From: Escherichia coli phage Shin27
Direction: 5' to 3' (one strand)
Length of the DNA: 64,000 bases
Sequence record: LC788709.1
In this document: positions 8,576 to 39,419 of the stretch, piece after piece
How the letters are laid out: every line of letters starts with the position of its first letter
Position numbering within the stretch: position 1 is the first letter of the stretch
Position numbers and translations under genes: made by a program
The notes under the pieces: model-generated
Databases searched by the model: none
Told to the model about the DNA's origin: nothing
The model's input: only the letters and a program-made list of their open reading frames with translations

Positions 8576-9186
8576 AGACTTTCCCTCAAGGAAAGTGAAA
8601 TACCAGTATATGTACCATTACTATTTAACGTAGAGCCAAAACTGTCTCCGTTCATTAATTTAGTTCTAAACAGAATACCATTAAATACCGGTTTCTCACT
8701 ACCCGTAGTAGTAATGAATAGATCAGGATAAACACTTATATTCCAAGTATTTCCTGCTGTGTTGATAGAAGTGATTTTGTACACTTTTGGATGGTTGGAC
8801 AATTTAAATAAATCGCCTGGTTTAGGCAGTCCACGAAGTGTACCTTTAGTGTCCATAATAACTATTGAACCTTTTTGTCCGGCAGGAATATTTACAGCAC
8901 TAGTATCACCACGAACTCGGAAAGCCTCATATTGTGGTAATAACACATCAATATAGCTACCTGTTCTTTTATAATCTAGAATGAATGAGTCTAATTTAGC
9001 AAATTCATCTGGGAATAATTCTGGATAAGAGATATTAATACCCCAATATTGAGCAGACACCTTAACCTCCCTAACTTTACCATTAGGTAATTCATCACGA
9101 ATCATAGGGTCATTGTCTACTAAGTTAACGCTTTCAAAACCTAACCCTGATAGCTCTGGGTTCGTGTATGGGTCTGGTAGTCTCAT
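8572..9186 (-). CDS. distal tail protein (T5 pb9-like)
   Basis: 204-aa ORF immediately after the tape measure gene. Confidence 0.6.
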   Translation of the reverse strand: MRLPDPYTNPELSGLGFESVNLVDNDPMIRDELPNGKVREVKVSAQYWGINISYPELFPDEFAKLDSFILDYKRTGSYIDVLLPQYEAFRVRGDTSAVNIPAGQKGSIVIMDTKGTLRGLPKPGDLFKLSNHPKVYKITSINTAGNTWNISVYPDLFITTTGSEKPVFNGILFRTKLMNGDSFGSTLNSNGTYTGISLSLRESL

Positions 9187-9212
9187 AGTTAATTTCTCCT
9201 CTTAATAACAAT

Positions 9213-9241
9213 ATTATAATAGGATTGGAAAATTTTATCAA
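9213..9241 (-). promoter_or_regulatory. sigma70-type promoter (TTGATA-N17-TATAAT) upstream of distal tail protein gene
   Basis: read on minus strand; follows the terminator hairpin after tape measure gene. Confidence 0.45.
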
Positions 9242-9257
9242 GAAATTTTTATTTTTC

Positions 9258-9290
9258 CATAAAGAAAAGGAGGACATAAAGTCCTCCTCC
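9258..9290 (-). terminator. rho-independent terminator after tape measure gene
   Basis: GC-rich hairpin GGAGGAC-ATAAA-GTCCTCC followed by U-run on minus strand. Confidence 0.5.
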
Positions 9291-9294
9291 AGTA

Positions 9295-12200
9295 TTAAGA
9301 ATTACCAAGTGATTTCAGGGTGGTTCCATTCTCATTAAGAGCCTGTTCTACGGCATCCCTGAAAGCAGCACTGTTGCTCGAAGCAAAGTCTCGGAAGCTA
9401 GCCGCATCCATCGTACTGATGTTCAGCACAATAGGTCTACCCGATGTACCCTTTGAAGATCCTTTGAGTTCATCAGTAGGAGTAGCCTTCATCGGAACCA
9501 TAGGAGTGATTACTTCGGTACCATGTTCACCCATCTGGTAACTAACTCCAGGATACATATTACCACCTTCTGCACGGGGTACGAAAGAGTTAGCATTACC
9601 AATCCCTTGATCTCCTCGAATATAAGAAAGCTCACCTGCGTTAGCCGACATAGAAACGTCTACGTTCTTCTGGCGCTCTCCAAGAGTTAAGTAACCAGCT
9701 GTCTCAGCACCAGAGTCCCCAATAGAAGACATACCAGATGCAGAGGATGCTTGAGCAAGAGCCATAGCACCTGCTAAACCAGCCGCAACCATCAGAGGAA
9801 TAGAGAATGGATACGGAACAGCTGTTGCTGCCTGCATCACCGCTACTGCCGTCTGGATAATGATTTGCTTCTTAGCCGCATCTTGCTGGATCTTGAGCTT
9901 TTCAGCCTCTAACTTCTTGATCTTAGCTTTAGATTGCTCAGATTTACCATCACGTTTCTGTTCTGCTGCAATAGCTGCATCAATAGCACTTACCTGTTGA
10001 CCAACACTATACTGAATCATTGAAGATACAGTTTGCATACCAGCCGCTACTAGAGAAGTGGTATCCAGAGATCCTTGTGAAAACTGGATCATAGCATTAG
10101 TTAGGTTACCCATGCTTTGTGCTACAGCAGTTGCTTCGGAGTTCAGTTCAGACAGCTTAGAAATAGCCTGGTCATAGGATGCCATTCTATTCTGCATATC
10201 CATATTTGCTTTATCATCTCCTTCCAGTCCAGTTGTTGGAGTGTAAACACCACCAACAGAAGAAGTGACTTGCTGCTGCATCTGAGCATCACGTTGCATC
10301 TTAAGCTGTGCTAGAGCTGCCGAAGTTTCTTGGATTTTACGCTTATACTCTTCCTGAGCTTGTGCATTTCCTTTTGTAATTTCCAGTAAACTTTGGTACA
10401 GAGCTTGCTGTTCGGTTAGTCTCTGAGATTCCCCCGTAACGTTTCTGCTAGTCTGTGAAATATTAAGAGCTCTTTCACGTCCAGAAGCCATTTCCCTTTG
10501 CTGATCCTGACGGAATTTCCAGATTTCACGTTCAATTTGTGCCTGAGCTCGTCTTGATTGTTCAGCTTCCTTCTGCTTATCAATCTGCTTGGAGTACCAC
10601 ACATACTTCTCTTTCTCGATAGTCAGTTCAAGGTTCAACTGAGCTAAACGATATTGAGTATCTGTCATAGTACGGTTATTCAGGAGAGCAATTTCACGAT
10701 CAACACCAAGAATCTTATCGGTATAGTCCTTAACCTTCTTCTGAGCTTCCATACCCTGGTTAGTGATCTTGATACGTTCTAGCTGAATCTTAGCTATCTC
10801 ACCTTCGATTGCTTTGTTACCCTTGTTAGTTTCTAGGACACGCTTAAGAGCTGCTTCCTGTTCTTCTAACTGTTGGATTTCCAGACGTCTACCAGCTTCC
10901 TGTGCTTTCTCTTTGTCCTTAGTCTGGCTATACACTTCGGCAATCTTCTGCTGAACTTCTAGCTGATTCTTAGTCTCATTACCAGTTAATTTTACATAAC
11001 CAGCAAGAGCTTGTGAAGCAGTCTTCATCTCACTAAGAGTATTATACCCTAAGTTCAGGCTCTTAACATACTCATCAGCATTTTTACCAGTACCCGCGGA
11101 TAGAGACTCAATAGTCTTAATCGTATCTGATAAGGATGCACTAGTTTTAGCCGCAGTATTAGTATTCTGAGCGATGTTCTGGATATCGTTAGCTAAATCA
11201 CTAGCAGTTTTCTTAGCCTGATCATATGCTTTCTGCTGTTCTGTCAGTCCTTTCAGAGTTGCAGAGTTGAAGTCATAAACCGCATCAGGGTCATTTGCAT
11301 CTTTCTGTAGGTTAATTTGCTTCTGGAATTCTGGATTAGCCTTAGCAGCTGCAGCACCAGCAGCTTGGTATGCCGATTTCCATGCATTAAGATTGCCAGT
11401 TGAATCCTCTACTTCCTTATCAAGACGCTCTACCTGGAGAGCTAATGCAGCAGTATCTGCAATAAATTTCTGGTTTTCTTCAGAAGATCCTATGCGAACT
11501 CCTCCTACTTCAAAACCTCCTGCAGCTAACCCTACCGGTGCACCTTGAGCAACTAAACGAATAGCCCCTGCTGTAGATGCATCTGCTTGCTGCATACGCT
11601 TATCTAGATCAGCTTTTAACTTATTACGCTTTTCTAGAGATTCTTTGTACATATCAAGAGCTTTATTATATCCTTCCTCAGAAGCGGAAAGACTTAAAGC
11701 TACAGCACCAACGTTAGTTGGGTCAATCTGACGGTTAGTTTCTTCCTGTGCTCTAGCAGCAGAGGCCGAGATAGATGCTTGAGAAGTATAGAACACTGCG
11801 TTGATAGAATCAATTACTGGCCCTAAATACTTAGCAGCAGCCTGTTGAACCTTTCTCAGTGCAGCATCAGCATTAGCAGCAAACTGTTCCCAGGGGGTTG
11901 CACGAAGTACATCATCAAGATAGCCGAAACGTTTAGTAGATTCAGCGATAACTGCGTTAGCATATGCTTGTTGCTTCTGGAAAGTAGAGAGACTATTAAC
12001 GTTATATGTAATACCTGTGTTAGCAGCATTTAACTGTTTAACGTAGTCTGCGTAAGCATCGTTAAGACGAATAGTAACACCAAGTTCGTCCAGAAGTTCG
12101 ATTTCTTGTTTAGATACACCCTTGATTACACGGTTAAGTGCATCAGTCATATCAACACCAAGAACAGCAGCAGCACGACGAGCTACTAGACCAAATTTAT

Positions 12201-27300: not shown

Positions 27301-27463
27301 GTTAGCGCTAATTACCAATTCTCGAAATCTCATAAGATTACACATGAAGGTGTGCCCAGAGGTTACCTAGATGAGAATGAGTCTCATTACCGCCCCGGTA
27401 CTTAGCAAGCTAATAGTCACACTATGTGATGATAACATAGTGTGACTATTTTATTTTTAATTG

Positions 27464-28198
27464 TTAGGCGACTTTTAATTTATCAATGAATTGTTGCGGG
27501 CTGCAACTATATTCTGCGCGTTCTTCCTCGGTCATACCTTCCCAACACATTTTTAAACGGTCGGCTAGGAATTGATAATCATTATCATCATCTAATGATT
27601 CATCAATAAAGGTTTCACCGATCAATGTTACGCCGATTGATAGGATATCATTAACGGCTTGAGCGTCCAGCGTTTTAAATCCAGCACTTGCCGCCGCCGA
27701 TAATACGCCTTTATGATCATCAATCATCGTAAAATCAGCGTTCGGATATAACTGTTTAAACAGTTCAAAGTAATAGCTTTTGTATACAGCGTCTTTACTA
27801 TGATATATTTCGCTAACCTTATCCGCTTCAAAGTATTTGTGTAATGTATCGCGAGAGAATACGCGGATATTGCTATTTCCGCGCCCTCGCAAGCCTTGTT
27901 TACGCAAATAAAAGTAATCGCTTTTAGACATAAGGCGCGCGGTACAAATAATATTTAAAGTATTTGCATCATTCATACATTGGCGCATATATTCAACCAA
28001 TGGCAATAAAGAATCCTGCATAATTAAATCATGTTTACAGGCTTCGCGTGAATACTTATTTAAATTTAAATTCCCGTTATCATCAAAGCAAGGCGCTACA
28101 CGGTGGAAAGAATTAATGATAGTTCCGTCTAAGTCCCAAATCATAACGCGGGAAATATGCGGGAAAGCGCGGGCAATATTCAAGGTTACTTGATTCAT
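27464..28198 (-). CDS. dmp: HAD-family 5'-deoxyribonucleotidase (T5 Dmp-like)
   Basis: 244-aa ORF with HAD motif I (IWDLDGTI); size and position next to A1-like gene. Confidence 0.65.
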   Translation of the reverse strand: MNQVTLNIARAFPHISRVMIWDLDGTIINSFHRVAPCFDDNGNLNLNKYSREACKHDLIMQDSLLPLVEYMRQCMNDANTLNIICTARLMSKSDYFYLRKQGLRGRGNSNIRVFSRDTLHKYFEADKVSEIYHSKDAVYKSYYFELFKQLYPNADFTMIDDHKGVLSAAASAGFKTLDAQAVNDILSIGVTLIGETFIDESLDDDNDYQFLADRLKMCWEGMTEEERAEYSCSPQQFIDKLKVA

Positions 28199-29041: not shown

Positions 29042-30706
29042 TTATGCAAAGAATTTACCGTTTTTGAAATCAATCAAAGTACGTTGCCCGTTTGCATAGG
29101 TAATTAAATGCGTTTGCGTCCAGCTTGACGCGCCCACGTTGTAGCCCATATCAAGGGAACCAGCAACGCCAGCGGTATAAACGCCGCCGTAAATGCTAGC
29201 CGTGTGAGTGTGACCAGTGTTAAGGCGTCCCAACTTTTTAAACTGCTTAGGATTGCCCCGACTGCCGTTAATGCCATTGTGACCATGTACGCCGCATTCA
29301 ATGCCAGCGATTTTAAAGGACTGGTCAGTAGTCAAAAAAATGGCGTTAAATTCGCATCCTGCAACGTTTCTAAGCGCATAATCTAACACGTTAAAGGTAT
29401 CATCCTTTTCAGCAATAGCGGCGTAAATCGCAGCGTTTAGACGGTGATACAGTTCCGCGTTTGCGGGATCATCTTTAATGTTTGCGTTACGATCATCTAA
29501 CCAGCGGGATAATGCTAAATCATGGTTAGATTCCACAATGATTGTTTGACTAAAATCACGTTCCATAGATTCTAATACGCGTCCAGTATCGATAAGATCA
29601 TCAATAACTTTATCACGTCCGGCGGCGTATTGTTTCGCAAGGAATACACCACTAGCGCGGTTATGATGGTTACGCGATGTAAAATCATGCACGTCATGAA
29701 TAAATTGATATTTCGGTTTAAGAATATCAAGCAAGCTGTTTTCACTAGCCCATGAAGCGACGGCGCAATCATCATCTAATTTTTCGGCGTGAATATCGCC
29801 ATATTGCAAGCCTAGAACATGATCGGACGTTTCAAAACATCCGGTAGGCATAGCGCAAACATTCAAATCATAGAACATTCCGCTTTCATCCATTGTTTCA
29901 ATCTGGCGAGCATAAAATTCGCCGTCGTCGTCGAACTCTACCAGCAAAGCGCCATAATTATGTAAAGCCTCAGCTTTTTGACCTGCTTTCTGCTGAATGT
30001 AGTTTTTAAGCGTAGCCGTTCCGGTTGAATACATACGGCACACTACTTCACCTTTTAACGCTGGCACACTTTCAGCGGTAATTTTAGCGTGACCAATTGC
30101 CAGACCTTCAATATTTAAAGCCGTGGCGGTTTCTGCGAATCCTGAAAGCGGGTAATCTGCCGTTGGTAAAACGTTAATTTCAGCCATGAAAGCAAAGCGG
30201 CGGTTATTTAAAAATACGTTTTTATCACAAACATATTTATCAAATGCGGGATCGTATTTAATACCGTTTGCCCCTTCCCCGTTCTGAAATCCGTTTTTGT
30301 TGTAAATGAATTTGCTAACAAGTAATTCAGCGCCGCAATATTCAGCGAATTTTTCCAGACTTGCTAAAAAGTTTTTATGCGGGAAAGTATTATTTTGAAT
30401 CGACGTTAGAATAAAACGGCGACCGGACTTAACTTCCCATTGCTCAACGGTGCTAGAAACAATTCCCGCCGCCTCTGGGCGATCATCGTTTTTAATCGCC
30501 TTTTCGGCTTTTGCCGCTTTCGGTTTCGCTGGTTTATTTGCTTCCAGCCAGTCACAAATTGCGGTCGAATGTTTCGGCGTACCATAAACAGCTTTTGAAA
30601 TATCGTCGCAAACTTCCAATTTAGTAGCGCGTAAACGCTTACCGTAGAAGTTAAAATCTGCGGCCATTTTCAAAATTTGAGCTTGTTTTTCTGCGGAAAT
30701 ATTCAT
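29042..30706 (-). CDS. A1: metallophosphoesterase, T5 A1-like (host DNA degradation / second-step transfer)
   Basis: 554-aa ORF with calcineurin-like motifs (GDIHAE, NHD, GHTHT); size matches T5 A1 as recalled. Confidence 0.65.
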   Translation of the reverse strand: MNISAEKQAQILKMAADFNFYGKRLRATKLEVCDDISKAVYGTPKHSTAICDWLEANKPAKPKAAKAEKAIKNDDRPEAAGIVSSTVEQWEVKSGRRFILTSIQNNTFPHKNFLASLEKFAEYCGAELLVSKFIYNKNGFQNGEGANGIKYDPAFDKYVCDKNVFLNNRRFAFMAEINVLPTADYPLSGFAETATALNIEGLAIGHAKITAESVPALKGEVVCRMYSTGTATLKNYIQQKAGQKAEALHNYGALLVEFDDDGEFYARQIETMDESGMFYDLNVCAMPTGCFETSDHVLGLQYGDIHAEKLDDDCAVASWASENSLLDILKPKYQFIHDVHDFTSRNHHNRASGVFLAKQYAAGRDKVIDDLIDTGRVLESMERDFSQTIIVESNHDLALSRWLDDRNANIKDDPANAELYHRLNAAIYAAIAEKDDTFNVLDYALRNVAGCEFNAIFLTTDQSFKIAGIECGVHGHNGINGSRGNPKQFKKLGRLNTGHTHTASIYGGVYTAGVAGSLDMGYNVGASSWTQTHLITYANGQRTLIDFKNGKFFA

Positions 30707-31100: not shown

Positions 31101-31517
31101 TTATTCACCTGCGGCCTGTTTTACTTCCTCCGCTACGCCTAACAATTGCGCTACGGCGTCCAGCGTTTCCAGTTTAGCACTTTCAAGGCTTGCCAGATCG
31201 TCGGCATCTTTTACGATACCTGAATCAATGGCGTGTTTAGCGATGACGCGCACATAGTGAGCTTTACGAATTGAGCTACCGCCGCCAACTTTGCGAGGTT
31301 TATCGCTTTTCTGATAGGCTTTTGCGCTTGTCAGTTTAGAACGTACAGACACCGGACTAGCAGCACCAACGGCGGCGGCAATTTCTTTCAGGCCGTCACT
31401 GTTAGCAAATTCACTTCCGCTTTTAGCGACCATTTCAGAATACATAGAAACAGCTTTTTCGGTGTTTTCTTCGTTCCAAGAGAATTTTGCGGTTTTTTCG
31501 GTTTTAACGTTAGACAT
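31101..31517 (-). CDS. hypothetical pre-early protein (possible A2 equivalent by size and position)
   Basis: 138-aa ORF immediately upstream of A1-like gene. Confidence 0.35.
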   Translation of the reverse strand: MSNVKTEKTAKFSWNEENTEKAVSMYSEMVAKSGSEFANSDGLKEIAAAVGAASPVSVRSKLTSAKAYQKSDKPRKVGGGSSIRKAHYVRVIAKHAIDSGIVKDADDLASLESAKLETLDAVAQLLGVAEEVKQAAGE

Positions 31518-31805
31518 AATTTAATACTCCATTCAATTATTAATTAAGGGATTATGATTAACTAAATGTTAATCGCTATATATTCTATTAGCTAGAATAT
31601 ATATAACGGAAACATTTTATTTTTATTTCCAGTTTCAAGCGGTTTATTAATTCCCGAATATATTTATATTCTCACCTTACCCGGCTTGCCAGAGAATTAA
31701 TAAGGCAACATTGTATTTATACGCTGTTTATTATTCCGTTCACGCTAGGAATATTTCGAGTTATCTTTATTGCCTAACTAAGCATGATATGTAAGGCGCA
31801 TTAAT

Positions 31806-32057
31806 TTATGCGATAGCTTGCCATTTATCATCTTTCTGAATGATTTTTACAACGTCGCCAGATTTAACACGGACGTTATAAATAGGCTTGCCGTGGTTAC
31901 TGCGTTCCGTTTCCGCATAGACCGCTTCAATCTTATCAAAGGGATCAAGCGCCGCACCTTTAATACGTTCAGCTTTTCCAGTTAATTCATCCGTTTTAGT
32001 AACGAAAGGAATAAAAACGGATTGACCTACTTTCGGTGCGGTGATAACGTTTTGCAT
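31806..32057 (-). CDS. hypothetical protein
   Basis: 83-aa ORF with GGAG RBS. Confidence 0.4.
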   Translation of the reverse strand: MQNVITAPKVGQSVFIPFVTKTDELTGKAERIKGAALDPFDKIEAVYAETERSNHGKPIYNVRVKSGDVVKIIQKDDKWQAIA

Positions 32058-32223
32058 TTTTAATACTCCGGTTTATTGGGGGATTATTCCACAATAGCGC
32101 CTCGATACTTTGAAACGCTATTAGATTATAATCCGCTAGGAGTTAGCCTAAACATTACCGTTTTTCCAAATTGTTAAAGAGCAGTTACTACGGGGAACAT
32201 CTTAAAACCTATCGGCTAGCGTG

Positions 32224-32433
32224 TCAATCGTTTTTTAAACTTTTTTCGATTTGATGGGAGTTATATAAATCAATCATTATATTACGCCACACCATTTCCA
32301 GCCCTTGTTGCTTGCCTTTCTTGTATTGCTTGAATCTGTATTTTACAGATCGTTGCGCTACTGTCAACAAATTTTTTGTTCTGCTATCAAGCGACTTGAT
32401 AGGCTTGCCAGTGATCAAAAGCGTTTGTTTCAT
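32224..32433 (-). CDS. hypothetical basic protein
   Basis: 69-aa ORF with AAGGA RBS, Lys/Arg-rich. Confidence 0.35.
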   Translation of the reverse strand: MKQTLLITGKPIKSLDSRTKNLLTVAQRSVKYRFKQYKKGKQQGLEMVWRNIMIDLYNSHQIEKSLKND

Positions 32434-32840
32434 ATCGTCGATTCCTTATAATATCTAAGTTTACCGCCGATAGGCTTTAAGATGTTCCCTAATTTTTAAA
32501 GAGCATGGCAGGGTTTTGAAAGGTCAAACAGACTGTCAATCGCTGTTATCCCCGCCGTGTAGTTCGTCATTGCCGCCCTACGTGATAAATAATAGGAGAA
32601 TACCGAGAAGGGCGCAAGCGTATTTTTGTAAAGAAACGTAAAGAAAACCACTACTCGCAAACGTCCAGCGGCGCATTAAATTTAATGAAACGGGCGCGCG
32701 AATAACACCAAAACAACCATTTTAGCAAGTAATTTTTTTCATTTATATTTGCTTTGCCATACTTGACAAAATCTAAAATCCTCGTGGTGAGGTTTTCTCG
32801 GTGTATCCCTTATGATTGCCTATCCTTTCCTTTGAGGCGC

Positions 32841-32867
32841 TTAGAATGCGTTACAGAGCGTTTTAGA
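32841..32867. repeat. 27-bp exact direct repeat, copy 1
   Basis: TTAGAATGCGTTACAGAGCGTTTTAGA identical to 37085-37111. Confidence 0.8.
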
Positions 32868-33185
32868 CCCTGTTAATAACTTATACAAAAAGCAAAAATG
32901 AAATTTAATGAGTTATCCACTTGATTTTTCAAAAAAGTATTTTCTGCTGTTATTTTTCATTGACAAATAAGTTTAGACGTGCATTTATTGGTTAGCAGAC
33001 TAATAATCGCTAGGAGGATAATCACGCTGGTGGATTGTAACAGCCGAAACAGTTAGCGGACTATTAATACTTTAAAAACCTATTAGCCAACTAACTATTT
33101 CATAATATATAATATACACATAAATTAATGAGAAATAATAACTATGAGAAACTATCGGGCTAAGTGAGAACCACTATCATTTAGG

Positions 33186-33255
33186 TTATGCACAAAGCTA
33201 TCCACAGCACAAAATAACTTGACGCAATAGGCGACGTTTTGGCGACTTATCCACA
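33186..33255 (+). promoter_or_regulatory. DnaA-box cluster
   Basis: TTATGCACA 33186-33194, cTATCCACA 33198-33206, TTATCCACA 33247-33255. Confidence 0.5.
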
Positions 33256-33295
33256 GACTTATATACAGGTTATCCTACTGTATAAATATACAGGG
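33241..33295. repeat. inverted-repeat arm L (DnaA box + LexA-like box)
   Basis: TTATCCACA at 33247-33255 and TACTGTATAAATATACAG at 33276-33293; reverse-complement partner at 37141-37205. Confidence 0.65.
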
Positions 33296-33543
33296 TAGAA
33301 TGGTAGCAGTAACAACCGCAATCAAATTTAAGCGGCCTAGAACGCGCTACACGGCGTTTTCTCACTGCTACCCTTATTATAATAAAGCCTTGTGTACGCT
33401 TACAGAGAGCTAGAAATAGAAAACGCGCGATTATCATAAAAACGGGCAGTAGGCAAGGAATAAAAAACCTTTTCTTTTTTTCTTGCCCCTAGCGAACAAT
33501 TATCTATATCATTCACTCACCGATTAACGAGGGAGACAAAGAA

Positions 33544-34545
33544 ATGTCTACTGTAAGAATTGCAGTACCAGCAAACGCAACTATTATTAAAGGTAGTTTG
33601 CGCAACCTGCTAGATGGTAGTAGTGCGGCAAGTATTCAGCACACCGCCGCAATGGTTGAAAAAATTCACGAGGATATTTTAGATAATAATGATACTCATT
33701 ATTCAGTCGATGATTTCACGCTATTACTAGACCAGACAAGGGCGCTAGTAATTTTCAACCGTGATTATCACATTTTCCGTAATAGTCAGGGAACTGATAT
33801 TGATTTTATCATTGTTGGTTATAGTGAGTCTCATAGTGGTTACATTGCGCGATTATATAACGTGCAAGAAAAAGAGCAGGTAACAGCAACAAAAGTAAAT
33901 AATATCAGATTGGATAGTGTCGGATCGTTATTAAATAGTATCTGGCGTGAATTATCATCCAGTTATAAAGGTGCTGATAGTGACGCAATCGAAACAACTG
34001 GCGTATTGTGCTTTGAACGCGCTAGCGGTAACATGTTGATCCCTAACGATTATTTAGAGTATGGGAATGAATCAAACGTTGCAAACGCTGGATTTACACT
34101 TTTACCGCTTGACAATGTAGCAAAACAGGCTGTAAACTCTCAAACTTCAAGCGCAAATGCGCAAACTACTGAAAATAAAGGAAATATTATGTCTAAAGTA
34201 TCTTCTATCGTTGCCGCTAATAAATCCGCCGTTGTTAACGCTGCTAAACTGGAAGCGGGTAAAATTGCACTGACTCAAATCACAAAAGTAGCGGCGAAAA
34301 AAGCGCCGTTTATGATTAAAGGTTATATCGATACGCCGATCGGTCGCGTAGTGATCGCTAACCTGTTAAGCGTAGCGGTTGACCAGTACGCCCCGACTAA
34401 TGCGAAAGCGAAAGCGGTAGCAGGCGCGGCAATGGAAGCGGCAATGCTGGAAATGGTACAGAGTTTCAATATTGCGGAAATGATCGATGAAATGGTAAAA
34501 GGTATTGACATTTCTACTTTTACCACTAACACCGAAAGTGAGTAG
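33544..34545 (+). CDS. hypothetical protein, first gene of plus-strand pre-early cassette
   Basis: 333-aa ORF with GAGGGAG RBS; Ala/Lys-rich C-terminal half; no recognisable motif. Confidence 0.55.
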   Translation: MSTVRIAVPANATIIKGSLRNLLDGSSAASIQHTAAMVEKIHEDILDNNDTHYSVDDFTLLLDQTRALVIFNRDYHIFRNSQGTDIDFIIVGYSESHSGYIARLYNVQEKEQVTATKVNNIRLDSVGSLLNSIWRELSSSYKGADSDAIETTGVLCFERASGNMLIPNDYLEYGNESNVANAGFTLLPLDNVAKQAVNSQTSSANAQTTENKGNIMSKVSSIVAANKSAVVNAAKLEAGKIALTQITKVAAKKAPFMIKGYIDTPIGRVVIANLLSVAVDQYAPTNAKAKAVAGAAMEAAMLEMVQSFNIAEMIDEMVKGIDISTFTTNTESE

Positions 34546-34612
34546 TAATAACTAGCGGGGATTATTTCCCCGCGTTACTATTTCCCTGTTAATTGTTAGG
34601 AGACTACTTATT

Positions 34613-34921
34613 ATGCAACTGAATCAAATCATGTTGACGCAATTAGCCGAAAAAATGCCGAATAGCCCCCATGTTAATTATTCGGACGATCAAAGCAATA
34701 TTCCTATATGGGAAAAACAAGGCCGTCCCTTTTTATGGGAACATGTAGAAAGCGCGAATAATTATCATGCTTTCTTTGATCGTGGTTATGGCTGGCTATG
34801 TATTTTTGTAGACGAAACTTTGCTGGATTATGGAATGGATGAAATAGTCCGTGATGACGTAATTTTCTTAAATAAAGGATTTTACAGTGTAGCAAATTCT
34901 CTTTATTTCCCTGCTAATTAA
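34613..34921 (+). CDS. hypothetical protein
   Basis: 102-aa ORF with AGGAG RBS. Confidence 0.5.
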   Translation: MQLNQIMLTQLAEKMPNSPHVNYSDDQSNIPIWEKQGRPFLWEHVESANNYHAFFDRGYGWLCIFVDETLLDYGMDEIVRDDVIFLNKGFYSVANSLYFPAN

Positions 34922-34934
34922 TAGGAGGCTAGTT

Positions 34935-35429
34935 ATGTCAGAAGAAAAATATGGCTTTTCACTAGAAAGTGTGAATGAAGCTAAACACGATATGATAGTT
35001 TTAGTTGATTGTCATACTGGCTATTGCGGGGAAGGCTGGACGGAGGAACATTTTGTTCCCGCTGGCTGTGATCTGGACGCTTTCGCAAACGAACACGCAT
35101 ATGATAATGCTTCTCGTTTCGGTAGTGATGGGGAAGAAGATGAAGAAACAGGGGAATGGATTGAAAATGATAATGTTTATGCGAGTATTTATCATTATCA
35201 ATTGAGTAAATCCGGTATTTATGTAAATGGCGGCGATCCTATTAATACCGTTATGAAACTAATTATTAAACACGGTGGCGCGGAAATAATTGGTAACAAG
35301 GCGTTATTATATGCAAATCGATTAAAACAGCTTGTTTATATTCCTGATAATTCCCGTTGGGATGAATATGCCGTTTTACAGAAAGAACTAAAACGCTGTT
35401 TCGGTGTGGAAGCATTAGAAATAGTCTAA
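34935..35429 (+). CDS. hypothetical acidic protein (DNA-mimic / anti-restriction candidate)
   Basis: 164-aa ORF with TAGGAGG RBS; strongly acidic segment DGEEDEETGEWIENDN. Confidence 0.5.
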   Translation: MSEEKYGFSLESVNEAKHDMIVLVDCHTGYCGEGWTEEHFVPAGCDLDAFANEHAYDNASRFGSDGEEDEETGEWIENDNVYASIYHYQLSKSGIYVNGGDPINTVMKLIIKHGGAEIIGNKALLYANRLKQLVYIPDNSRWDEYAVLQKELKRCFGVEALEIV

Positions 35430-35536
35430 TGTAAAGTTTTGTAAAGGTCGCCTATTATGGCGACCTTTTTTGTTATAATGCCTTTACACCGAAACGGTGG
35501 GTTGAAAATTTTCCCTGATTTCTAGGAGGCGTTAAA

Positions 35537-35764
35537 ATGGTACATTCATCATCTTCTGCAATTTTTAACGGTATGGAATGGGTATCCGTTCCCGCTATTG
35601 TCAGCGTTATGGTTTCTGAGTTCGGCATAGGTAAAACTTATGTTACCATTCAGGGGCTTTACGACAATGACAAGATTGACCAGCAAACCGCCGGATTTTT
35701 GCTGGATGAATTGAAAGCTAACCATTGCACTAAAAAGCAAGCGGCAAAAATTGTTTTAATGTAA
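35537..35764 (+). CDS. hypothetical protein
   Basis: 75-aa ORF with TAGGAGG RBS. Confidence 0.45.
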   Translation: MVHSSSSAIFNGMEWVSVPAIVSVMVSEFGIGKTYVTIQGLYDNDKIDQQTAGFLLDELKANHCTKKQAAKIVLM

Positions 35765-35810
35765 TTAATAAAGGGGGTATATTATCCCCTAATTTCTAGG
35801 AGCTAATAAA

Positions 35811-35960
35811 ATGGTTATTTTTCGATCTATTCTAGCTAGTATCTTGGGCGCTATTTTATCACTGTTTGTAATAGCTTTCGGCGTTAACGTGGTTATTATT
35901 GGAGCAGGTATCGCTGGGTTTTCTTACTTGTTAGGCTGTATGACTGGTAAAGGGGAATAA
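35811..35960 (+). CDS. small membrane peptide
   Basis: 49-aa hydrophobic ORF with TAGGAG RBS; below ORF-track size cutoff. Confidence 0.35.
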   Translation: MVIFRSILASILGAILSLFVIAFGVNVVIIGAGIAGFSYLLGCMTGKGE

Positions 35961-35962
35961 AA

Positions 35963-36175
35963 ATGTTAAAGAATGTTTCCCTTGCCCGTTCTAAAGGTTT
36001 TAAGCTGGTGGATGTTAACACGTTCGAGCGTCCAGATTGTAAAATCGAATATGTAGCACGCAACAAAAACGCTTTCCGTGTTACTGAAAAGAAATTTGAC
36101 AAGCGCGGAAATTTGGTAGCCGAAACGGTTAAACACTTTGCTACTTTTTACGCTGCGTTTCGTGGGGTATTATGA
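35963..36175 (+). CDS. hypothetical protein
   Basis: 70-aa ORF tightly packed after preceding ORF. Confidence 0.45.
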   Translation: MLKNVSLARSKGFKLVDVNTFERPDCKIEYVARNKNAFRVTEKKFDKRGNLVAETVKHFATFYAAFRGVL

Positions 36176-36273
36176 GATCCTTATATATTGCTCTAGCGTT
36201 TGCTACCGTTGGCGTTGTTTGCTCATTCGCTGCATTTGTTCTAAAAATGTACCTGATATTTTCCCAGCTTTAG
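36172..36273 (+). CDS. small membrane peptide
   Basis: 33-aa hydrophobic ORF overlapping previous stop (ATGA). Confidence 0.25.
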   Translation: MRSLYIALAFATVGVVCSFAAFVLKMYLIFSQL

Positions 36274-36284
36274 GAGCTTGACAA

Positions 36285-36632
36285 ATGGTTATTTATGAGG
36301 GTAATCGCTTTGTTACTAATTGCCGTCCGGCATTATTAGCAAACTATTTAAATCAGCTTTCCCCTGTTTATAAAGGCGTGGTTAACATCTATGAAGGCAA
36401 AGCGCACTATAGAATTAATGCCGTTGTCGCTCGCGAGCTTGCCTTTCAGTTTCTTACTTTTAACTCATGCGATATTCAGGTTATGGGTGAGTCTTTGATT
36501 GCAGAAAATGAAGATGAATTTATTAACATTTTCCGCAAAGTATGTACAGAGCGCCTGATTATGAAAGGCGCATATATTCAATCAACCGCTGATAGTATTG
36601 AAACAGCGTTTCGAAAAATTGTAAATGAATAG
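36285..36632 (+). CDS. hypothetical protein
   Basis: 115-aa ORF with TAGGAG RBS. Confidence 0.5.
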   Translation: MVIYEGNRFVTNCRPALLANYLNQLSPVYKGVVNIYEGKAHYRINAVVARELAFQFLTFNSCDIQVMGESLIAENEDEFINIFRKVCTERLIMKGAYIQSTADSIETAFRKIVNE

Positions 36633-36755
36633 CTGGTGGCGTAAAACGCAATCCCATAAATCTAATAATACCGCTGGGAAACATTCCCAGCGTTTACGAT
36701 TTGGGAACGGCTTCACAATGTTAATAATAATCATTCTCATTCTAGGAGCAATGGC

Positions 36756-36995
36756 ATGGCTGTAAGAATTTTACGATATGTAGAACGTAAAGAAACCGAT
36801 ATTATGCAGCATCATTTAACTGATGGGCAATACGCGCAATTTTTAGAAATGCAGAAAAGCGGAGCTAGTACGGCGGCGCTAGGGGCGTGGATCAATTCAG
36901 TTTCAACGTGTACGCATTTTGATTCATACGGGTATACGCCAGCCGAAACCGTCCAGATCTTTGACGACTACGAGAAGGAATACATAGCAGACTAA
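36756..36995 (+). CDS. hypothetical protein, last gene of cassette
   Basis: 79-aa ORF with TAGGAG RBS. Confidence 0.45.
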   Translation: MAVRILRYVERKETDIMQHHLTDGQYAQFLEMQKSGASTAALGAWINSVSTCTHFDSYGYTPAETVQIFDDYEKEYIAD

Positions 36996-37084
36996 TAATA
37001 GCGGGGCGCAACTATCGGCCCCGCCTTTTCTGCCTGCAAACAAATTTCCCCTTATTAAAATACCTCCTCCAAAAATAAACGCGT

Positions 37085-37111
37085 TAGAATGCGTTACAGA
37101 GCGTTTTAGAG
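37085..37111. repeat. 27-bp exact direct repeat, copy 2
   Basis: identical to 32841-32867. Confidence 0.8.
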
Positions 37112-37140
37112 CTATATTAGAGTTATTCACTACGTAGGAA

Positions 37141-37205
37141 TACTGTATATTTATACAGTAGAATAACCTGTGGATAAGTCAGTGGATAACGCCTCAAAAT
37201 CGCTA
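37141..37205. repeat. inverted-repeat arm R (LexA-like box + DnaA boxes)
   Basis: TACTGTATATTTATACAGTA at 37141-37160, TGTGGATAA at 37169-37177. Confidence 0.65.
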
Positions 37206-37251
37206 GGATTTTGTCAAGTCAAATCGTGCTGTTAATAAACCTGTGGATAAC
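37169..37251 (-). promoter_or_regulatory. DnaA-box cluster
   Basis: reverse complement of TTATCCACA at 37169-37177 and 37243-37251, near-match at 37181-37189. Confidence 0.5.
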
Positions 37252-37269
37252 TTAAATAGCAGTGTTTCT

Positions 37270-37420
37270 CACTTCGCTTTCTAAATGCGAATCATTCTCA
37301 TTATGCGACTCATTCGTATTCAATTCTGTAAATGATAATCATTCCCATTCCACTTTCTAAATGCGAGTAGTTCTCATTCGCATTCAACTTCTCAAATGCG
37401 AATCAATCTCATTATCAGTT
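37270..37420. repeat. three copies of ~25-bp motif (CTTTCTAAATGCGAATCATTCTCATT family)
   Basis: copies near 37277, 37344, 37385. Confidence 0.6.
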
Positions 37421-37463
37421 GCATTTCGGCAGGCAGGGCATTTTCTATTTGCCCTGCGCTTTT

Positions 37464-38065
37464 GTGCAAATCCGACATCTGCCCCCACGGATTACGTGCC
37501 AGCGTGCATGTGCGAATCCGACAATTTTTGGTAGTGTGCAAATCCGATGGGAAATATTTTTTATATGTGCGAATCCGACAATGAATTTTCCTAAAAACTC
37601 CAGCAATCCGCAACTGCGATGCAATCCAGCTGGATTTACTAGAGTATGCGCAAATCCGACATGAGTTTATTTGTGCAAAACCGACAAGATTTTTGTGACT
37701 TCGATGAGAGGGTGTGTGATTGTGAGGGTTTGGGGAGAAGTGCGAATCCGATGAGATTTTGGGAGGAACTACGGAAGGAGCAGCGGTGATGGTGCTTTAG
37801 CACCGGTTTGCTGCATTTTTGAGGATAATGCGGGATGTTTTGGCTAGAATTGAGATTAGGGGAGATAAAGCGAAATTTTATTAGCAAAATGGGGCAAAAT
37901 CGCTTGACAAGTGAAAATTCCTGTGGCTCTAAAAAACTCAGGCAAATATGGGCCTTCGGCCCGAAATAATGCTGCTATTTTCAGTGTTCCTAAAAACTTT
38001 GGAGACTCCTATCAATGTGCAAATCCGACCATAAATTTCTAGAAACACAGTGTGCAAATCCGATA
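37464..38065. repeat. dispersed array of ~10 copies of 14-bp motif GTGCRAATCCGAYR
   Basis: copies at 37464, 37510, 37538, 37567, 37648, 37673, 37740, 38017, 38052, degenerate at ~37603; irregular spacing. Confidence 0.75.
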
Positions 38066-38230
38066 GCAATTTCCAGAAATGTGTTTTGGAAAAATGTCTC
38101 CTAGAAATAACCGCCCTCCCTATAACCGCCCTGTATTAAACCGCCTATTGCTGGAGTTTCTAGGAACATGAAAACCGCCTGAGTTGGCGAGAGTTTTCCT
38201 AGAAACTTAGGAGTCTACTAGAAAGTGTTG
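38030..38230. repeat. cluster of TTCTAGAA-type palindromes and AACCGCC repeats
   Basis: TTTCTAGAAAC, TCCTAGAAA, TTTCTAGGAAC, TTCCTAGAAAC plus four AACCGCC copies at 38100-38170. Confidence 0.6.
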
Positions 38231-38528
38231 TGCTATCCTAGCAGATGAGCGGCAACAGGTGTATCATCTTGAACATTAATTTATCTATTCAACAGTATTA
38301 GTTTTTATATAAGTATAAGATCCCCAGGGGATTGTGAGAGATGCTCCACCCCTGGGATACGAATTGCGTGAGATGGTACAAAACTTCTGAAGATTTCCCT
38401 AGCCCTCCGACAAGCTACGGGGGAAATAGAAGTTTCCCATCCACCATCCGTATCCGGGTGGATCTCTTTATTCTATGTTATTTCATAGAGTTATTATAAC
38501 ATGCAGAAATCATAACGTCAAGTAGAGT

Positions 38529-39419
38529 TTATTCATCGAACATGAGATTTCCTTTCATCCCCATCTCCGCATACTCCATGAGTTCTCCTAGGGATCTCAC
38601 AGGGTAATCTACTTTACTGAAGTTATCATAGATCTTACATGAACTCTCGTACAACTCGTTAGGTATCTGCAATTTGTTATCAGTTAGCTTCTCATAACGT
38701 GTAGAAGATTTTGTACCTTCAAACAGAACTGCAATAACTGCGGCGATTTGTTTGGTAAGATCATCTGCTCCTAGAATTATTCTATTAATAGCAATCGTTA
38801 CTTCATGCTTAGGTTTCACAGGTGGAAGGATAGGCTTGAGATCCTTAGGTAAAGGTTCTGTTCCTAGGAATCCTTCTTTTGTGCGGAACCAATAATTATC
38901 TAGATCAGATATTGTCTTAGACTTATTCCATATAGTGAAGCAAGGTTTATTTCCTTCACGATCTCTGTATTCACGAACTGGAAGATAATGATCAGGGAAT
39001 GAGTTGAGTGCATCATGCATTGGTGAGCCTGTCTTTTTAAATGACAAACCGTACAACTCATTATAATTCATAACTTCATCTTCATAAACATGGAAATCTT
39101 TATATGCTGGAAGATTAAACCATTCCTGAAGTGAATGAACTGCAAAACGTTGTGCCCAAGCATGCATCACAAGAACTCTGTACTCTTTTACTTCATCTTT
39201 TGGAGAAGTACCTCTAACTGTTCTAGCTGACCGAATACAGAACATCTCAACAACACGTCTCTCGTTTAAAGAAAGCTCAGAGTAACAACGTTCATGGCAA
39301 CCTTCTAGCATTTCTAGAAGTTCACGTAGTTTCTCTACATCGACCGGTGGAAAAGGTCTCTCTTCCACCGCGAATTTACCAACTACACCTTTCGGCTTTC
39401 TATTACTATAAAATCCCAT
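38529..39419 (-). CDS. hypothetical early protein
   Basis: 296-aa ORF, last gene before the repeat region. Confidence 0.5.
   Translation of the reverse strand: MGFYSNRKPKGVVGKFAVEERPFPPVDVEKLRELLEMLEGCHERCYSELSLNERRVVEMFCIRSARTVRGTSPKDEVKEYRVLVMHAWAQRFAVHSLQEWFNLPAYKDFHVYEDEVMNYNELYGLSFKKTGSPMHDALNSFPDHYLPVREYRDREGNKPCFTIWNKSKTISDLDNYWFRTKEGFLGTEPLPKDLKPILPPVKPKHEVTIAINRIILGADDLTKQIAAVIAVLFEGTKSSTRYEKLTDNKLQIPNELYESSCKIYDNFSKVDYPVRSLGELMEYAEMGMKGNLMFDE

What the first reader, a model, noticed from the sequence alone, without database searches (positions are those of the whole stretch)
33276..33294. Near-consensus LexA (SOS) box next to a perfect DnaA box upstream of the cassette
TACTGTATAAATATACAG fits the CTGT-N8-ACAG LexA operator and lies 20 bp downstream of a perfect DnaA box (33247-33255), with two further DnaA-like boxes at 33186-33206. 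SOS operators are unexpected in a strictly lytic T5-like phage. They could place cassette expression under LexA control or act as decoys for host LexA/DnaA on the first-injected DNA.
Basis: partly seen in the sequence, partly recalled or inferred. Interest (0 to 1): 0.65.

Follow-up and report, generated by a model that had tools for sequence, protein, structure and literature searches.

The report
Conserved SOS box in T5 injection-stop repeats
The near-perfect binding site for the host SOS repressor LexA is real, has an even better inverted twin 3.8 kb away, and turns out to be the most conserved element of the DnaA-box repeats that T5-like phages carry on their first-injected DNA, which gives the 60-year-old puzzle of T5's two-step DNA injection a new, directly testable host factor.

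Summary
TACTGTATAAATATACAG lies at 33276-33293, 20 bp after a perfect DnaA box, with two more DnaA-type boxes upstream. The window is a T5-like phage and the site lies in its terminal repeat (first-step-transfer DNA). An inverted twin sits at 37141-37160: TACTGTATATTTATACAGTA, 19/20 to the LexA consensus. The two end a 135-nt inverted repeat that brackets the variable right-hand pre-early gene cassette. These arms are T5's known IRC-spacer-IRD and IRD'-spacer-IRC'. The right arm belongs to the proposed injection-stop region, and the twin is T5's annotated "palindrome D". The DnaA boxes have been published since 1987. No paper I could read mentions LexA. A LexA matrix scores the sites 22.9 and 25.7 bits, against 14.6 for the next best in 64 kb. 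All 39 T5-like loci sampled carry exactly two such boxes. Phages of Klebsiella, Pantoea, Pectobacterium, Proteus, Aeromonas and Vibrio keep CTGTAT-N4-ATACAG beside DnaA boxes, usually 10 bp from a tandem pair. It is the only invariant block in the arms. No sigma-70-like promoter overlaps it, so the classical-operator reading is not supported. Best reading: a host LexA site in a LexA+DnaA module organising first-injected DNA. Binding is untested.

The parts
33276..33295 (.). Left LexA-type box (the finding): TACTGTATAAATATACAGGG, at the inner end of the left repeat arm
   Evidence: The LexA matrix scores it 22.9 bits and the heterology-index-type score is 3.7. The orthologous box is present in 39/39 T5-like loci.
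33159..33293 (+). Left arm of the 135-nt inverted repeat, equivalent to T5's IRC-spacer-IRD (Repeat Region 2)
   Evidence: the repeat finder pair I1, 75% complementary, 3849 nt between the arms. T5 annotation and Davison 2020.
33247..33267 (+). Tandem DnaA-box pair: TTATCCACA (33247-33255), GAC, then degenerate TTATATACA (33259-33267), which ends 10 bp before CTGT
   Evidence: The pairs-separated-by-3-bp arrangement is described for T5-like phages.
33186..33206 (+). Outer DnaA-box pair: TTATGCACA (33186-33194), AAG, cTATCCACA (33198-33206)
33337..33363 (+). 'X-box' (about equal to T5 inverted repeat B'): three roughly 10-bp-phased CTAG/TTAG repeats on the cassette side of the LexA-type box
   Evidence: Direct-repeat family D5. 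It is present outside every LexA-type box in all genera sampled.
33483..33512 (+). Predicted sigma-70-type promoter of the cassette (TTGCCC-18-TATCAT), equivalent to T5's annotated putative pre-early promoter P4. It does not overlap the LexA-type box.
33544..36995 (+). Variable right-hand pre-early gene cassette: a DUF7566 protein, several unknown proteins, and a homologue of T5.015 at 35963-36175
   Evidence: The cassette has the opposite orientation in Sugarlandvirus and My1.
37001..37029 (+). Rho-independent-type terminator closing the cassette: GCGGGGC, a 10-nt loop, GCCCCGC, then CTTTT. It matches the position of T5's palindrome C, which is also annotated there as a putative rho-independent terminator.
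   Evidence: Sequence read directly. The positional match to T5 palindrome C rests on the T5 annotation; I did not align the two.
37084..37110 (+). X-box copy on the cassette side of the right LexA-type box. It is identical to a third copy at 32841-32867.
37141..37160 (.). Right LexA-type box: TACTGTATATTTATACAGTA, 19/20 to the consensus TACTGTATATATATACAGTA. It is the orthologue of T5's annotated 'palindrome D'.
   Evidence: It scores 25.7 bits. The consensus is quoted in PMC13203515.
37143..37277 (-). Right arm of the inverted repeat, equivalent to T5's IRD'-spacer-IRC' (Repeat Region 3), the published candidate for the injection-stop signal
37169..37250 (-). Two tandem DnaA-box pairs. The first is TGTGGATAA (37169-37177), GTC, AGTGGATAA (37181-37189), and it starts 10 bp after ACAG. 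The second is TGTTAATAA (37230-37238), ACC, TGTGGATAA (37242-37250).

Best explanation
The site is one of two inverted copies of a high-affinity binding site for the host SOS repressor LexA. Both lie in the terminal repeat, the first-step-transfer DNA, of a T5-like phage. Each copy sits at the inner, cassette-facing end of a conserved non-coding module. The module runs: X-box, LexA box, 10 bp, a tandem DnaA-box pair, a spacer containing TTGTCAAG, a second DnaA-box pair. The two modules are T5's IRC-spacer-IRD and IRD'-spacer-IRC' (with palindrome D). They bracket the variable right-hand pre-early cassette. By the T5 coordinates, the right module ends a few hundred bp before the point where injection pauses.

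Proposed working: as soon as this DNA enters an uninduced cell, a LexA dimer occupies each box. DnaA occupies the phased boxes about two helical turns away. Together they form two protein-DNA complexes that organise or hold the first-injected DNA. This is a boundary or injection-stop and hand-over complex, not a promoter operator. Because LexA self-cleaves when RecA is activated, the complex would loosen once the pre-early nuclease function starts degrading host DNA.

Shown here: the sequence, its statistics, the architecture, family-wide conservation, and the lack of promoter overlap. Inferred: LexA and DnaA occupancy. Speculative: the role in the injection stop or restart and the SOS-sensitive release.
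For: 1. Match quality. The sites score 22.9 and 25.7 bits and the twin is 19/20 to the consensus. That is as good as or better than the real E. coli SOS boxes in the matrix. The next best site in 64 kb scores 14.6 bits, and none of 300 random sequences reached 22.9.
2. Close relatives. All 39 T5-like loci with at least 4.2 kb upstream of A2 have exactly two boxes of 17 bits or more, in orthologous places. There are none in 305 kb of other sequence from the same loci.
3. Deep conservation. Sugarlandvirus, Pantoea AAS21, Myunavirus, Novosibvirus, Shenzhenvirus and two Vibrio phage lineages all carry 2-3 CTGTAT-N4-ATACAG boxes in this region, and in each at least one lies close to TTATCCACA boxes. 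Their A1 proteins are only 32-74% identical to the window's (My1's A1 identity was not measured) and their A2 proteins 34-62% identical.
4. In an alignment of 15 arms from 8 lineages, the only fully invariant block is CTGTA...CAG. The central four bases vary (AAAT, ATTT, GGAT, ATCC). That is the information profile of LexA sites.
5. Most of the rare variants, CTGG, CTGTAC, CCAG and CACAG, are alternatives also seen in genuine SOS boxes.
6. Fixed phasing. ACAG lies 10 bp from the first DnaA box in 56 of 73 distinct boxes.
7. The neighbouring motif is the exact consensus of a second conserved host protein, DnaA. LexA and DnaA specificity is shared across Gammaproteobacteria (established knowledge), whereas the phage proteins have diverged strongly.
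8. No first-step-transfer protein has a Pfam LexA-type DNA-binding domain. The A2 model resembles GcrA and Myb-type three-helix domains, not a LexA winged helix.
9. The composite LexA-N10-DnaA pattern is found only in T5-like contigs, in both IMG/VR and 596 Gb of bacterial genomes.
Against: No binding data exist, so everything about occupancy is inferred from sequence. The LexA matrix was built from sites recalled from memory. All known hosts of the family share the same LexA motif, so there is no natural host-swap test. A2 keeps a conserved helix (SVRSKL..Y.K), so a phage protein could also read a conserved palindrome. The phage boxes are more uniform (CTGTAT/ATACAG almost invariant) than host SOS boxes. 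That could mean a more demanding reader than LexA. The left copy has decayed at the CTG in a few genomes (CCTTGTAT..., 17.2 bits). To my knowledge recA1 laboratory strains are lysed by T5-type phages (own knowledge, not checked here). If so, LexA cleavage cannot be essential for growth. It is also unclear how proteins bound to DNA already inside the cell could stop further entry.
Confidence: 0.55

Rival explanations
1. The palindrome is read by a phage pre-early protein, for example the dimeric DNA-binding protein A2 alone or the A1/A2 nuclease complex. Davison proposed such a complex as a restriction-like cutter of palindromes in this region. Under this reading the likeness to the SOS box is coincidence or mimicry.
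Against: An unrelated 20-bp palindrome matching the LexA consensus at 19/20 is very improbable by coincidence. It also sits 10 bp from the exact consensus of another host protein. The box stays constant while A2 drops to 34-40% identity. Myb- and GcrA-type domains usually read short asymmetric sites (established knowledge). No LexA-type domain is present in the first-step-transfer proteins.
Confidence: 0.2
2. It is a classical SOS operator. LexA represses a promoter that drives the cassette, or an unannotated transcript, so that these pre-early genes respond to the SOS state of the host.
For: The box lies upstream of the cassette in the divergent promoter region between the A2 operon and the cassette. 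LexA boxes contain -10-like TATAAA and TATATT hexamers. The cassette encodes a homologue of T5.015, a protein that nicks DNA. Temperate phages such as GIL01 do use host LexA as a repressor.
Against: The promoter scan finds no sigma-70-like promoter overlapping the box. The predicted cassette promoter starts about 190 bp downstream. No -35-like element is conserved at the right distance on either side across genera. The stronger twin lies after the cassette terminator and faces about 1.4 kb of non-coding repeats. Pre-early genes must be expressed at once in uninduced cells, where a 23-26-bit operator would be fully occupied.
Confidence: 0.12
3. The module is an origin-like unwinding unit. The AT-rich palindrome acts as a DNA-unwinding element next to a tandem DnaA-box pair, in the same order and orientation as the AT-rich 13-mers and box R1 in oriC. 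LexA is at most a gate on it.
For: The order AT-rich element, 10 bp, TGTGGATAA x2 mirrors the oriC arrangement (own knowledge). DnaA boxes come in tandem pairs with fixed spacing.
Against: An unwinding element needs AT-richness, not invariant C and G at positions 3, 5, 16 and 18. Mapped T5 origins are near the genome centre, and replication genes are not expressed during first-step transfer (Davison 2020).
Confidence: 0.08
4. It is a chance match in AT-rich DNA with no function.
For: The loose pattern CTGT-N8-ACAG alone is not significantly enriched.
Against: Matrix scores lie far beyond random expectation. There are two copies in homologous arms. The box is invariant across eight lineages while its flanks have diverged.
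Confidence: 0.02

Closest known systems
Bacteriophage T5 'palindrome D' with inverted repeats D/D' and C/C' (IRC-spacer-IRD in Repeat Region 2, IRD'-spacer-IRC' in Repeat Region 3, the proposed injection-stop signal region). Sources: the AY587007 annotation, Heusterspreute 1987, Davison 2020.
   Same: This is the same element. The window's right box is the orthologue of T5 palindrome D (9330-9349, TACTGTATAAATATACAGTA). The finding's box is the end of inverted repeat D (6112-6152). The DnaA-box pairs separated by 3 bp, the position in the terminal repeat, and the variable cassette between the arms also match.
   Different: In the sources I could read, the palindrome is only called a palindrome, or a possible restriction-type site. 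It is not equated with the SOS box; LexA and SOS have zero occurrences. Conservation down to Vibrio and Aeromonas phages, the 10-bp phasing to the DnaA pair, and the box's status as the most conserved block are added here.
Chromosomal SOS boxes of E. coli and other Gammaproteobacteria (LexA operators of recA, sulA, umuDC, dinD and others)
   Same: It has the same 20-bp palindrome, taCTGtatatatataCAGta. Its matrix score is at the top of the range of real sites. It shows the same pattern of conserved outer bases and a variable centre.
   Different: It is not placed over or next to a recognisable promoter. It occurs as an inverted pair 1.6-4.1 kb apart on a lytic phage's first-injected DNA. It is phased to DnaA boxes.
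Use of host LexA by mobile elements: temperate phage GIL01 (LexA plus gp7 at promoter P1), CTX-phi, dinI-like genes of N15/phiKO2-type phages, colicin operons
   Same: A phage or plasmid carries bona fide host LexA sites and so ties itself to the SOS state of the cell.
   Different: Those sites are promoter operators in temperate or plasmid elements that use SOS as an induction signal. Here the phage is strictly lytic, there is no promoter overlap, and the partner is DnaA.
DnaA-box clusters: oriC, datA and DARS, and DnaA-box transcription blocks
   Same: It has consensus TTATCCACA boxes in closely spaced tandem arrays next to an AT-rich element.
   Different: There is no evidence of origin or titration function. 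The published idea is that membrane-associated DnaA holds the injected DNA. None of those chromosomal loci is known to me to pair DnaA boxes with a LexA box at fixed spacing, and a search of 596 Gb of bacterial genomes found the composite only in a phage contig.

Membership tests
LexA operator (SOS box), gammaproteobacterial type | A 16-20-bp palindrome CTGT-N8-ACAG (taCTGtatatatataCAGta) matching at the level of proven sites | tested here: met
   The sites score 22.9 and 25.7 bits against 12.6-23.7 for 23 recalled E. coli sites. The twin is 19/20 to the consensus.
LexA operator (SOS box), gammaproteobacterial type | LexA protein binds the site | not testable with these tools
   This needs EMSA, footprinting or ChIP. 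Here it is inferred from sequence only.
LexA operator (SOS box), gammaproteobacterial type | The site overlaps or abuts a promoter, so that binding represses transcription | tested here: not met
   No sigma-70-like promoter overlaps the box. The nearest predicted promoter, 33483-33512, starts about 190 bp away. The twin lies after a terminator. The consensus scan could miss an atypical promoter.
LexA operator (SOS box), gammaproteobacterial type | Expression or function changes with SOS induction (lexA or recA dependence) | not testable with these tools
   No expression data were available. The literature searches found nothing.
T5-type IRC-spacer-IRD / IRD'-spacer-IRC' repeats of the terminal repeat (injection-stop-associated) | A pair of inverted repeats of about 131 nt in the terminal repeat, one between the A2 operon and the right-hand cassette and one just before the non-coding repeat array | tested here: met
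   The arms are 33159-33293 and 37143-37277. The position relative to A2, the cassette and the DRD-type repeats matches the T5 annotation. The terminal repeat was mapped through phage Stitch.
T5-type IRC-spacer-IRD / IRD'-spacer-IRC' repeats of the terminal repeat (injection-stop-associated) | Four tandem pairs of DnaA or DnaA-like boxes, with the boxes of each pair 3 bp apart | tested here: met
   The pairs are at 33186-33206, 33247-33267, 37169-37189 and 37230-37250.
T5-type IRC-spacer-IRD / IRD'-spacer-IRC' repeats of the terminal repeat (injection-stop-associated) | Acts in cis to stop DNA injection after first-step transfer | not testable with these tools
   This has never been shown experimentally, even for T5.
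DnaA-dependent replication origin or unwinding unit | DnaA-box array next to an AT-rich unwinding element, with DnaA-dependent opening or replication | tested here: inconclusive
   The order and orientation resemble oriC. The invariant G and C positions in the AT-rich element argue for protein recognition instead. Function was not testable.

The most novel reading that the evidence does not exclude
Host LexA, together with DnaA, is a working component of the T5 two-step injection switch. LexA-DnaA complexes on the two inverted arms hold the first-injected DNA. The A1-dependent breakdown of host DNA then activates RecA, LexA cleaves itself, and the complex is released or handed to A1/A2. In this way second-step transfer is licensed only after host takeover has succeeded. 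This would explain why A1 is needed both for host DNA degradation and for second-step transfer. It would also be the first case of an SOS repressor used structurally by a strictly lytic phage.
Probability: 0.12. Interest if true: 0.9.

Novelty: new variant of a known kind. Interest (0 to 1): 0.68.

Why it matters
How T5 stops injecting after about 8% of its genome and then restarts has been open since the 1960s. A 2026 paper still calls the mechanism poorly understood and lists only repeats, palindromes and DnaA boxes. This work adds three things. The most conserved block of the proposed stop region is a consensus SOS box. It is phased to the DnaA boxes. The pair is kept from coliphages to Vibrio and Aeromonas phages. 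That names a second candidate host factor and makes the question testable with standard strains (lexA(Def), lexA(Ind-), recA) and purified LexA. It would also widen the known uses of LexA sites from promoter operators of temperate elements to non-promoter sites on a lytic phage. If LexA does not bind, the element is still the best-defined candidate site for the A1/A2 proteins.

Tried and rejected
1. Host-motif swap test. I looked for A1-bearing phages of hosts with a different LexA motif. Rhizobium phage RHph_X3_9 is an Autographiviridae with A1 inside its replication module and no first-step-transfer architecture. All Demerecviridae genera infect Gammaproteobacteria (host knowledge is my own). 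The test is therefore not applicable.
2. Rfam scan of 31500-39000 at E<=1. Only two sub-threshold sRNA hits at about 35430, nothing at the boxes.
3. Promoter and terminator scan. No promoter overlaps the box and no terminator lies at it. By eye I found no -35-like hexamer conserved across genera at the right spacing.
5. Literature. Searches for T5, T5-like or Tequintavirus with LexA or SOS box gave nothing relevant. Davison 2015 could not be opened and Heusterspreute 1987 was not among the papers I could read, so an earlier mention of the LexA likeness cannot be excluded.
6. Vibrio phage pVp-1. The record does not start at the terminal repeat, so it served only as a coding-DNA control. Its best LexA-type hit scores 18.9 bits.
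7. Bacterial genome scan for the composite. The single hit is a T5-like contig inside a metagenome-assembled genome.

Full report
**What the window is.** The window is a T5-like phage of the family Demerecviridae. The region 32700-33600 is 96-97% identical to many Salmonella and E. coli T5-like phages. The 554-aa protein at 29042-30706(-) is the A1 DNA-transfer protein, 100% identical to that of E. coli phage Wa28. The ORF at 31101-31517(-) is A2. Mapping onto phage Stitch puts the start of the terminal repeat near 27354. By analogy with T5, it ends near 37.9-38.0 kb. The finding therefore lies on the first-step-transfer DNA. It sits in the non-coding gap between the leftward dmp-A1-A2 operon and a rightward block of small genes at 33544-36995.

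**The observation.**
- TACTGTATAAATATACAG lies at 33276-33293. The full 20-mer is TACTGTATAAATATACAGGG.
- TTATCCACA lies at 33247-33255, 20 nt upstream of the 20-mer.
- TTATGCACA lies at 33186-33194 and cTATCCACA at 33198-33206.

The loose pattern CTGT-N8-ACAG is not significant on its own, with 2 hits against 0.82 expected. I built a 20-position LexA matrix from 23 E. coli SOS boxes recalled from memory, so it is approximate. It scores the site 22.9 bits. The next best unrelated site in 64 kb scores 14.6 bits, and the training sites score 12.6-23.7. None of 300 Markov random 64-kb sequences reached 22.9 bits. The consensus TACTGTATATATATACAGTA is quoted in PMC13203515 and PMC7556043.

The only other CTGT-N8-ACAG in the window is its reverse complement, at 37143-37158. 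Its 20-mer at 37141-37160, TACTGTATATTTATACAGTA, is 19/20 to the consensus and scores 25.7 bits. The two boxes are the inner ends of a 135-nt inverted repeat with arms at 33159-33293 and 37143-37277. All three perfect TTATCCACA boxes in the window lie in these arms.

Each arm has the same order of elements:
- a LexA-type box;
- 10 bp;
- a tandem DnaA-box pair with the boxes 3 bp apart;
- a spacer containing TTGTCAAG;
- a second DnaA-box pair.

On the cassette side of each LexA-type box lies a further conserved element that I call the X-box. It consists of three roughly 10-bp-phased TTAG/CTAG repeats, at 33337-33363 and 37084-37110, with a third copy at 32841-32867.

**What is already known.** This is the architecture published for T5. 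Inverted repeats C and D form Repeat Region 2. D' and C' form Repeat Region 3, the candidate injection-stop signal. The DnaA boxes were noted in 1987 and surveyed in 25 phages by Davison. In the T5 record the right box is annotated as 'palindrome D' (9330-9349, TACTGTATAAATATACAGTA). The left box is the end of inverted repeat D. Davison treats palindrome D only as one of several palindromes that a hypothetical A1/A2 restriction-like activity might cut. 'LexA' and 'SOS' do not occur in that text. They also do not occur in the 2023 BF23 genome paper, and 'LexA' and 'SOS' are both absent from a 2026 PNAS paper that summarises the state of the injection-stop problem. Targeted searches found no paper linking T5-like phages with LexA. 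Davison 2015 could not be opened and Heusterspreute 1987 was not among the papers I could read. The claim that this is unreported therefore holds only for the literature I could read.

**Conservation in close relatives.** In 39 of 39 IMG/VR loci with at least 4.2 kb upstream of A2, there are exactly two boxes of 17 bits or more. One lies 1.6-2.3 kb from A2 and the other 3.4-6.2 kb from A2. There are none in the remaining 305 kb of those loci. The right, palindrome-D copy is always strong, at 23.4-25.8 bits. The left copy is weaker and has decayed at the CTG in a few genomes.

**Conservation in distant relatives.** The same arrangement appears in seven further lineages: Klebsiella phage Spivey, Pantoea AAS21, Pectobacterium My1, Proteus Stubb, Aeromonas AhSzw-1, Vibrio Cody and Vibrio 70E37.1. 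Each has 2-3 CTGTAT-N4-ATACAG boxes in this region, and in each at least one lies close to TTATCCACA boxes. In these phages A1 is only 32-74% identical to the window's and A2 34-62%; My1's A1 identity was not measured.

In an alignment of 15 arms from 8 lineages, the only fully invariant block is CTGTA...CAG. The central four bases vary: AAAT, ATTT, GGAT, ATCC. The spacing from ACAG to the first DnaA box is 10 bp in 56 of 73 distinct boxes. It is 22-23 bp where the first box of the pair is degenerate. The composite pattern CTGTAT-N4-ATACAG-N10-TGTGGATAA occurs in 41 stretches of IMG/VR. Nearly all lie on contigs of about 100-120 kb. Many of these are the contigs already retrieved through A2. 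Two lie on shorter metagenome contigs, one of which has T5-like sequence and one of which I could not place. In 596 Gb of bacterial genomes the pattern occurs once, in a T5-like contig inside a metagenome-assembled genome.

**Who reads the box.** The case for host LexA rests on five points.
- The box is near-identical to the consensus, and its conserved and variable positions follow the profile of LexA sites.
- Most of the rare variants (CTGG, CTGTAC, CCAG, CACAG) are alternatives also seen in real SOS boxes.
- The immediate neighbour is the exact consensus of another conserved host protein, DnaA.
- The box stays the same while the phage proteins diverge strongly.
- No first-step-transfer protein has a LexA-type DNA-binding domain.

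**What it does.** The classical-operator reading is not supported.
- No sigma-70-like promoter overlaps either box.
- The predicted cassette promoter (33483-33512, TTGCCC-18-TATCAT) starts about 190 bp downstream of the left box. It corresponds to T5's annotated putative P4.
- The stronger right box follows the cassette's terminator (37001-37029). It faces about 1.4 kb without convincing genes.
- No -35-like element is conserved at the right distance in other genera.

The symmetric placement suggests a boundary or architectural role. The boxes sit at the inner ends of inverted arms around a cassette whose length and content vary. The cassette's orientation also differs between lineages. The DUF7566 gene is divergent from A2 in the window, T5, AAS21 and Stubb, but co-directional with A2 in Spivey and My1.

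I therefore commit to this mechanism: LexA dimers, with DnaA on the phased boxes, assemble on both arms of the first-injected DNA. This extends Davison's DnaA-only 'knot' idea. The extra idea is that LexA self-cleavage, triggered by A1-dependent host DNA breakdown, loosens the complex. That idea is attractive because it links the two phenotypes of A1, but it is speculative. It is weakened by my recollection, not verified here, that recA1 strains support T5-type phages.

**Verdict.** The DnaA part and the repeat architecture are already known. Three things appear new in the literature I could read: the identification of palindrome D and its twin as consensus SOS boxes, their family-wide conservation, and their fixed phasing to DnaA boxes. 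Together they make a long-standing problem experimentally approachable.

Noticed in passing
window 27373-27592, 33685-33703, 35163-35181, 36720-36738, 37272-37420: Fur-box-like sequences are concentrated in the terminal repeat. GATAATGATAATCATTATC with 3 or fewer mismatches gives 5 hits against 0.01 expected, and every hit with 4 or fewer mismatches lies in 27.3-37.4 kb. The repeats right of the right arm (AAATGCGAATCATTCTCATT, equivalent to T5 palindromes E-I) are inverted TGAGAAT units. T5's TGAGAATCATTATCA is 14/15 to the 7-1-7 Fur motif (motif from my own knowledge). 'Fur' does not occur in Davison 2020. T5's receptor FhuA is Fur-regulated, so a third host-factor site is conceivable.
   Followed up: partly
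window 32841-32867, 33337-33363, 37084-37110: The 'X-box' consists of three roughly 10-bp-phased TTAG/CTAG repeats (TTAGAATGCG TTACAGAGCG TTTTAGAGC). It lies 3-45 bp outside every LexA-type box in all eight lineages examined, and partly corresponds to T5 inverted repeats B/B'. Its reader is unknown, and it is a candidate site for A2.
   Followed up: partly
window 33544-36995 compared with L042 (Spivey) 6275-9498 and L049 (My1) 8019-10487: The cassette between the inverted arms has the opposite orientation relative to A2 in Sugarlandvirus and Myunavirus compared with T5-like, AAS21 and Stubb phages. The shared DUF7566 gene shows this. It is consistent with inversion by recombination between the arms during evolution.
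   Followed up: partly
window 33285-33286 and 37150-37151; loci L002-L041: The two central bases of the box flip between AA and TT (TATAAATATA versus TATATTTATA), both between phages and between the two arms of one phage. The perfectly symmetric TATATATATA was never seen. With the DnaA boxes to the right, the TTT form outnumbers the AAA form about 3:1.
   Followed up: no
window 37462-38069: There are seven to eleven copies of TGTGCAAATCCGACA (T5 direct repeat D) spread over about 600 bp at the end of the terminal repeat. No reader is known.
   Followed up: no
window 35963-36175: The cassette encodes a homologue of T5.015 (PHROG 4227), the protein reported to nick abasic sites made by host Ung. 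This DNA-damaging function sits between the two LexA-type boxes.
   Followed up: no
[not shown]
   Followed up: partly
L044 (Proteus phage Stubb) 9839-9858 and L047 (Vibrio phage 70E37.1) 12939-12958: These phages have a third X-box plus LexA-type box near A2 that lacks adjacent DnaA boxes. It is followed instead by TTGNCA and a shared ACGCATACGC motif. In the window the equivalent place (32868-32921) holds only a decayed box (CCCTGTTAATAACTTATACAA) and a TTATCCACT.
   Followed up: no
window 32193-32216 and 32466-32489: A 24-nt inverted repeat, 96% complementary, flanks the small DUF7416 gene at 32224-32433(-). It probably corresponds to T5 inverted repeats A/A'.
   Followed up: no
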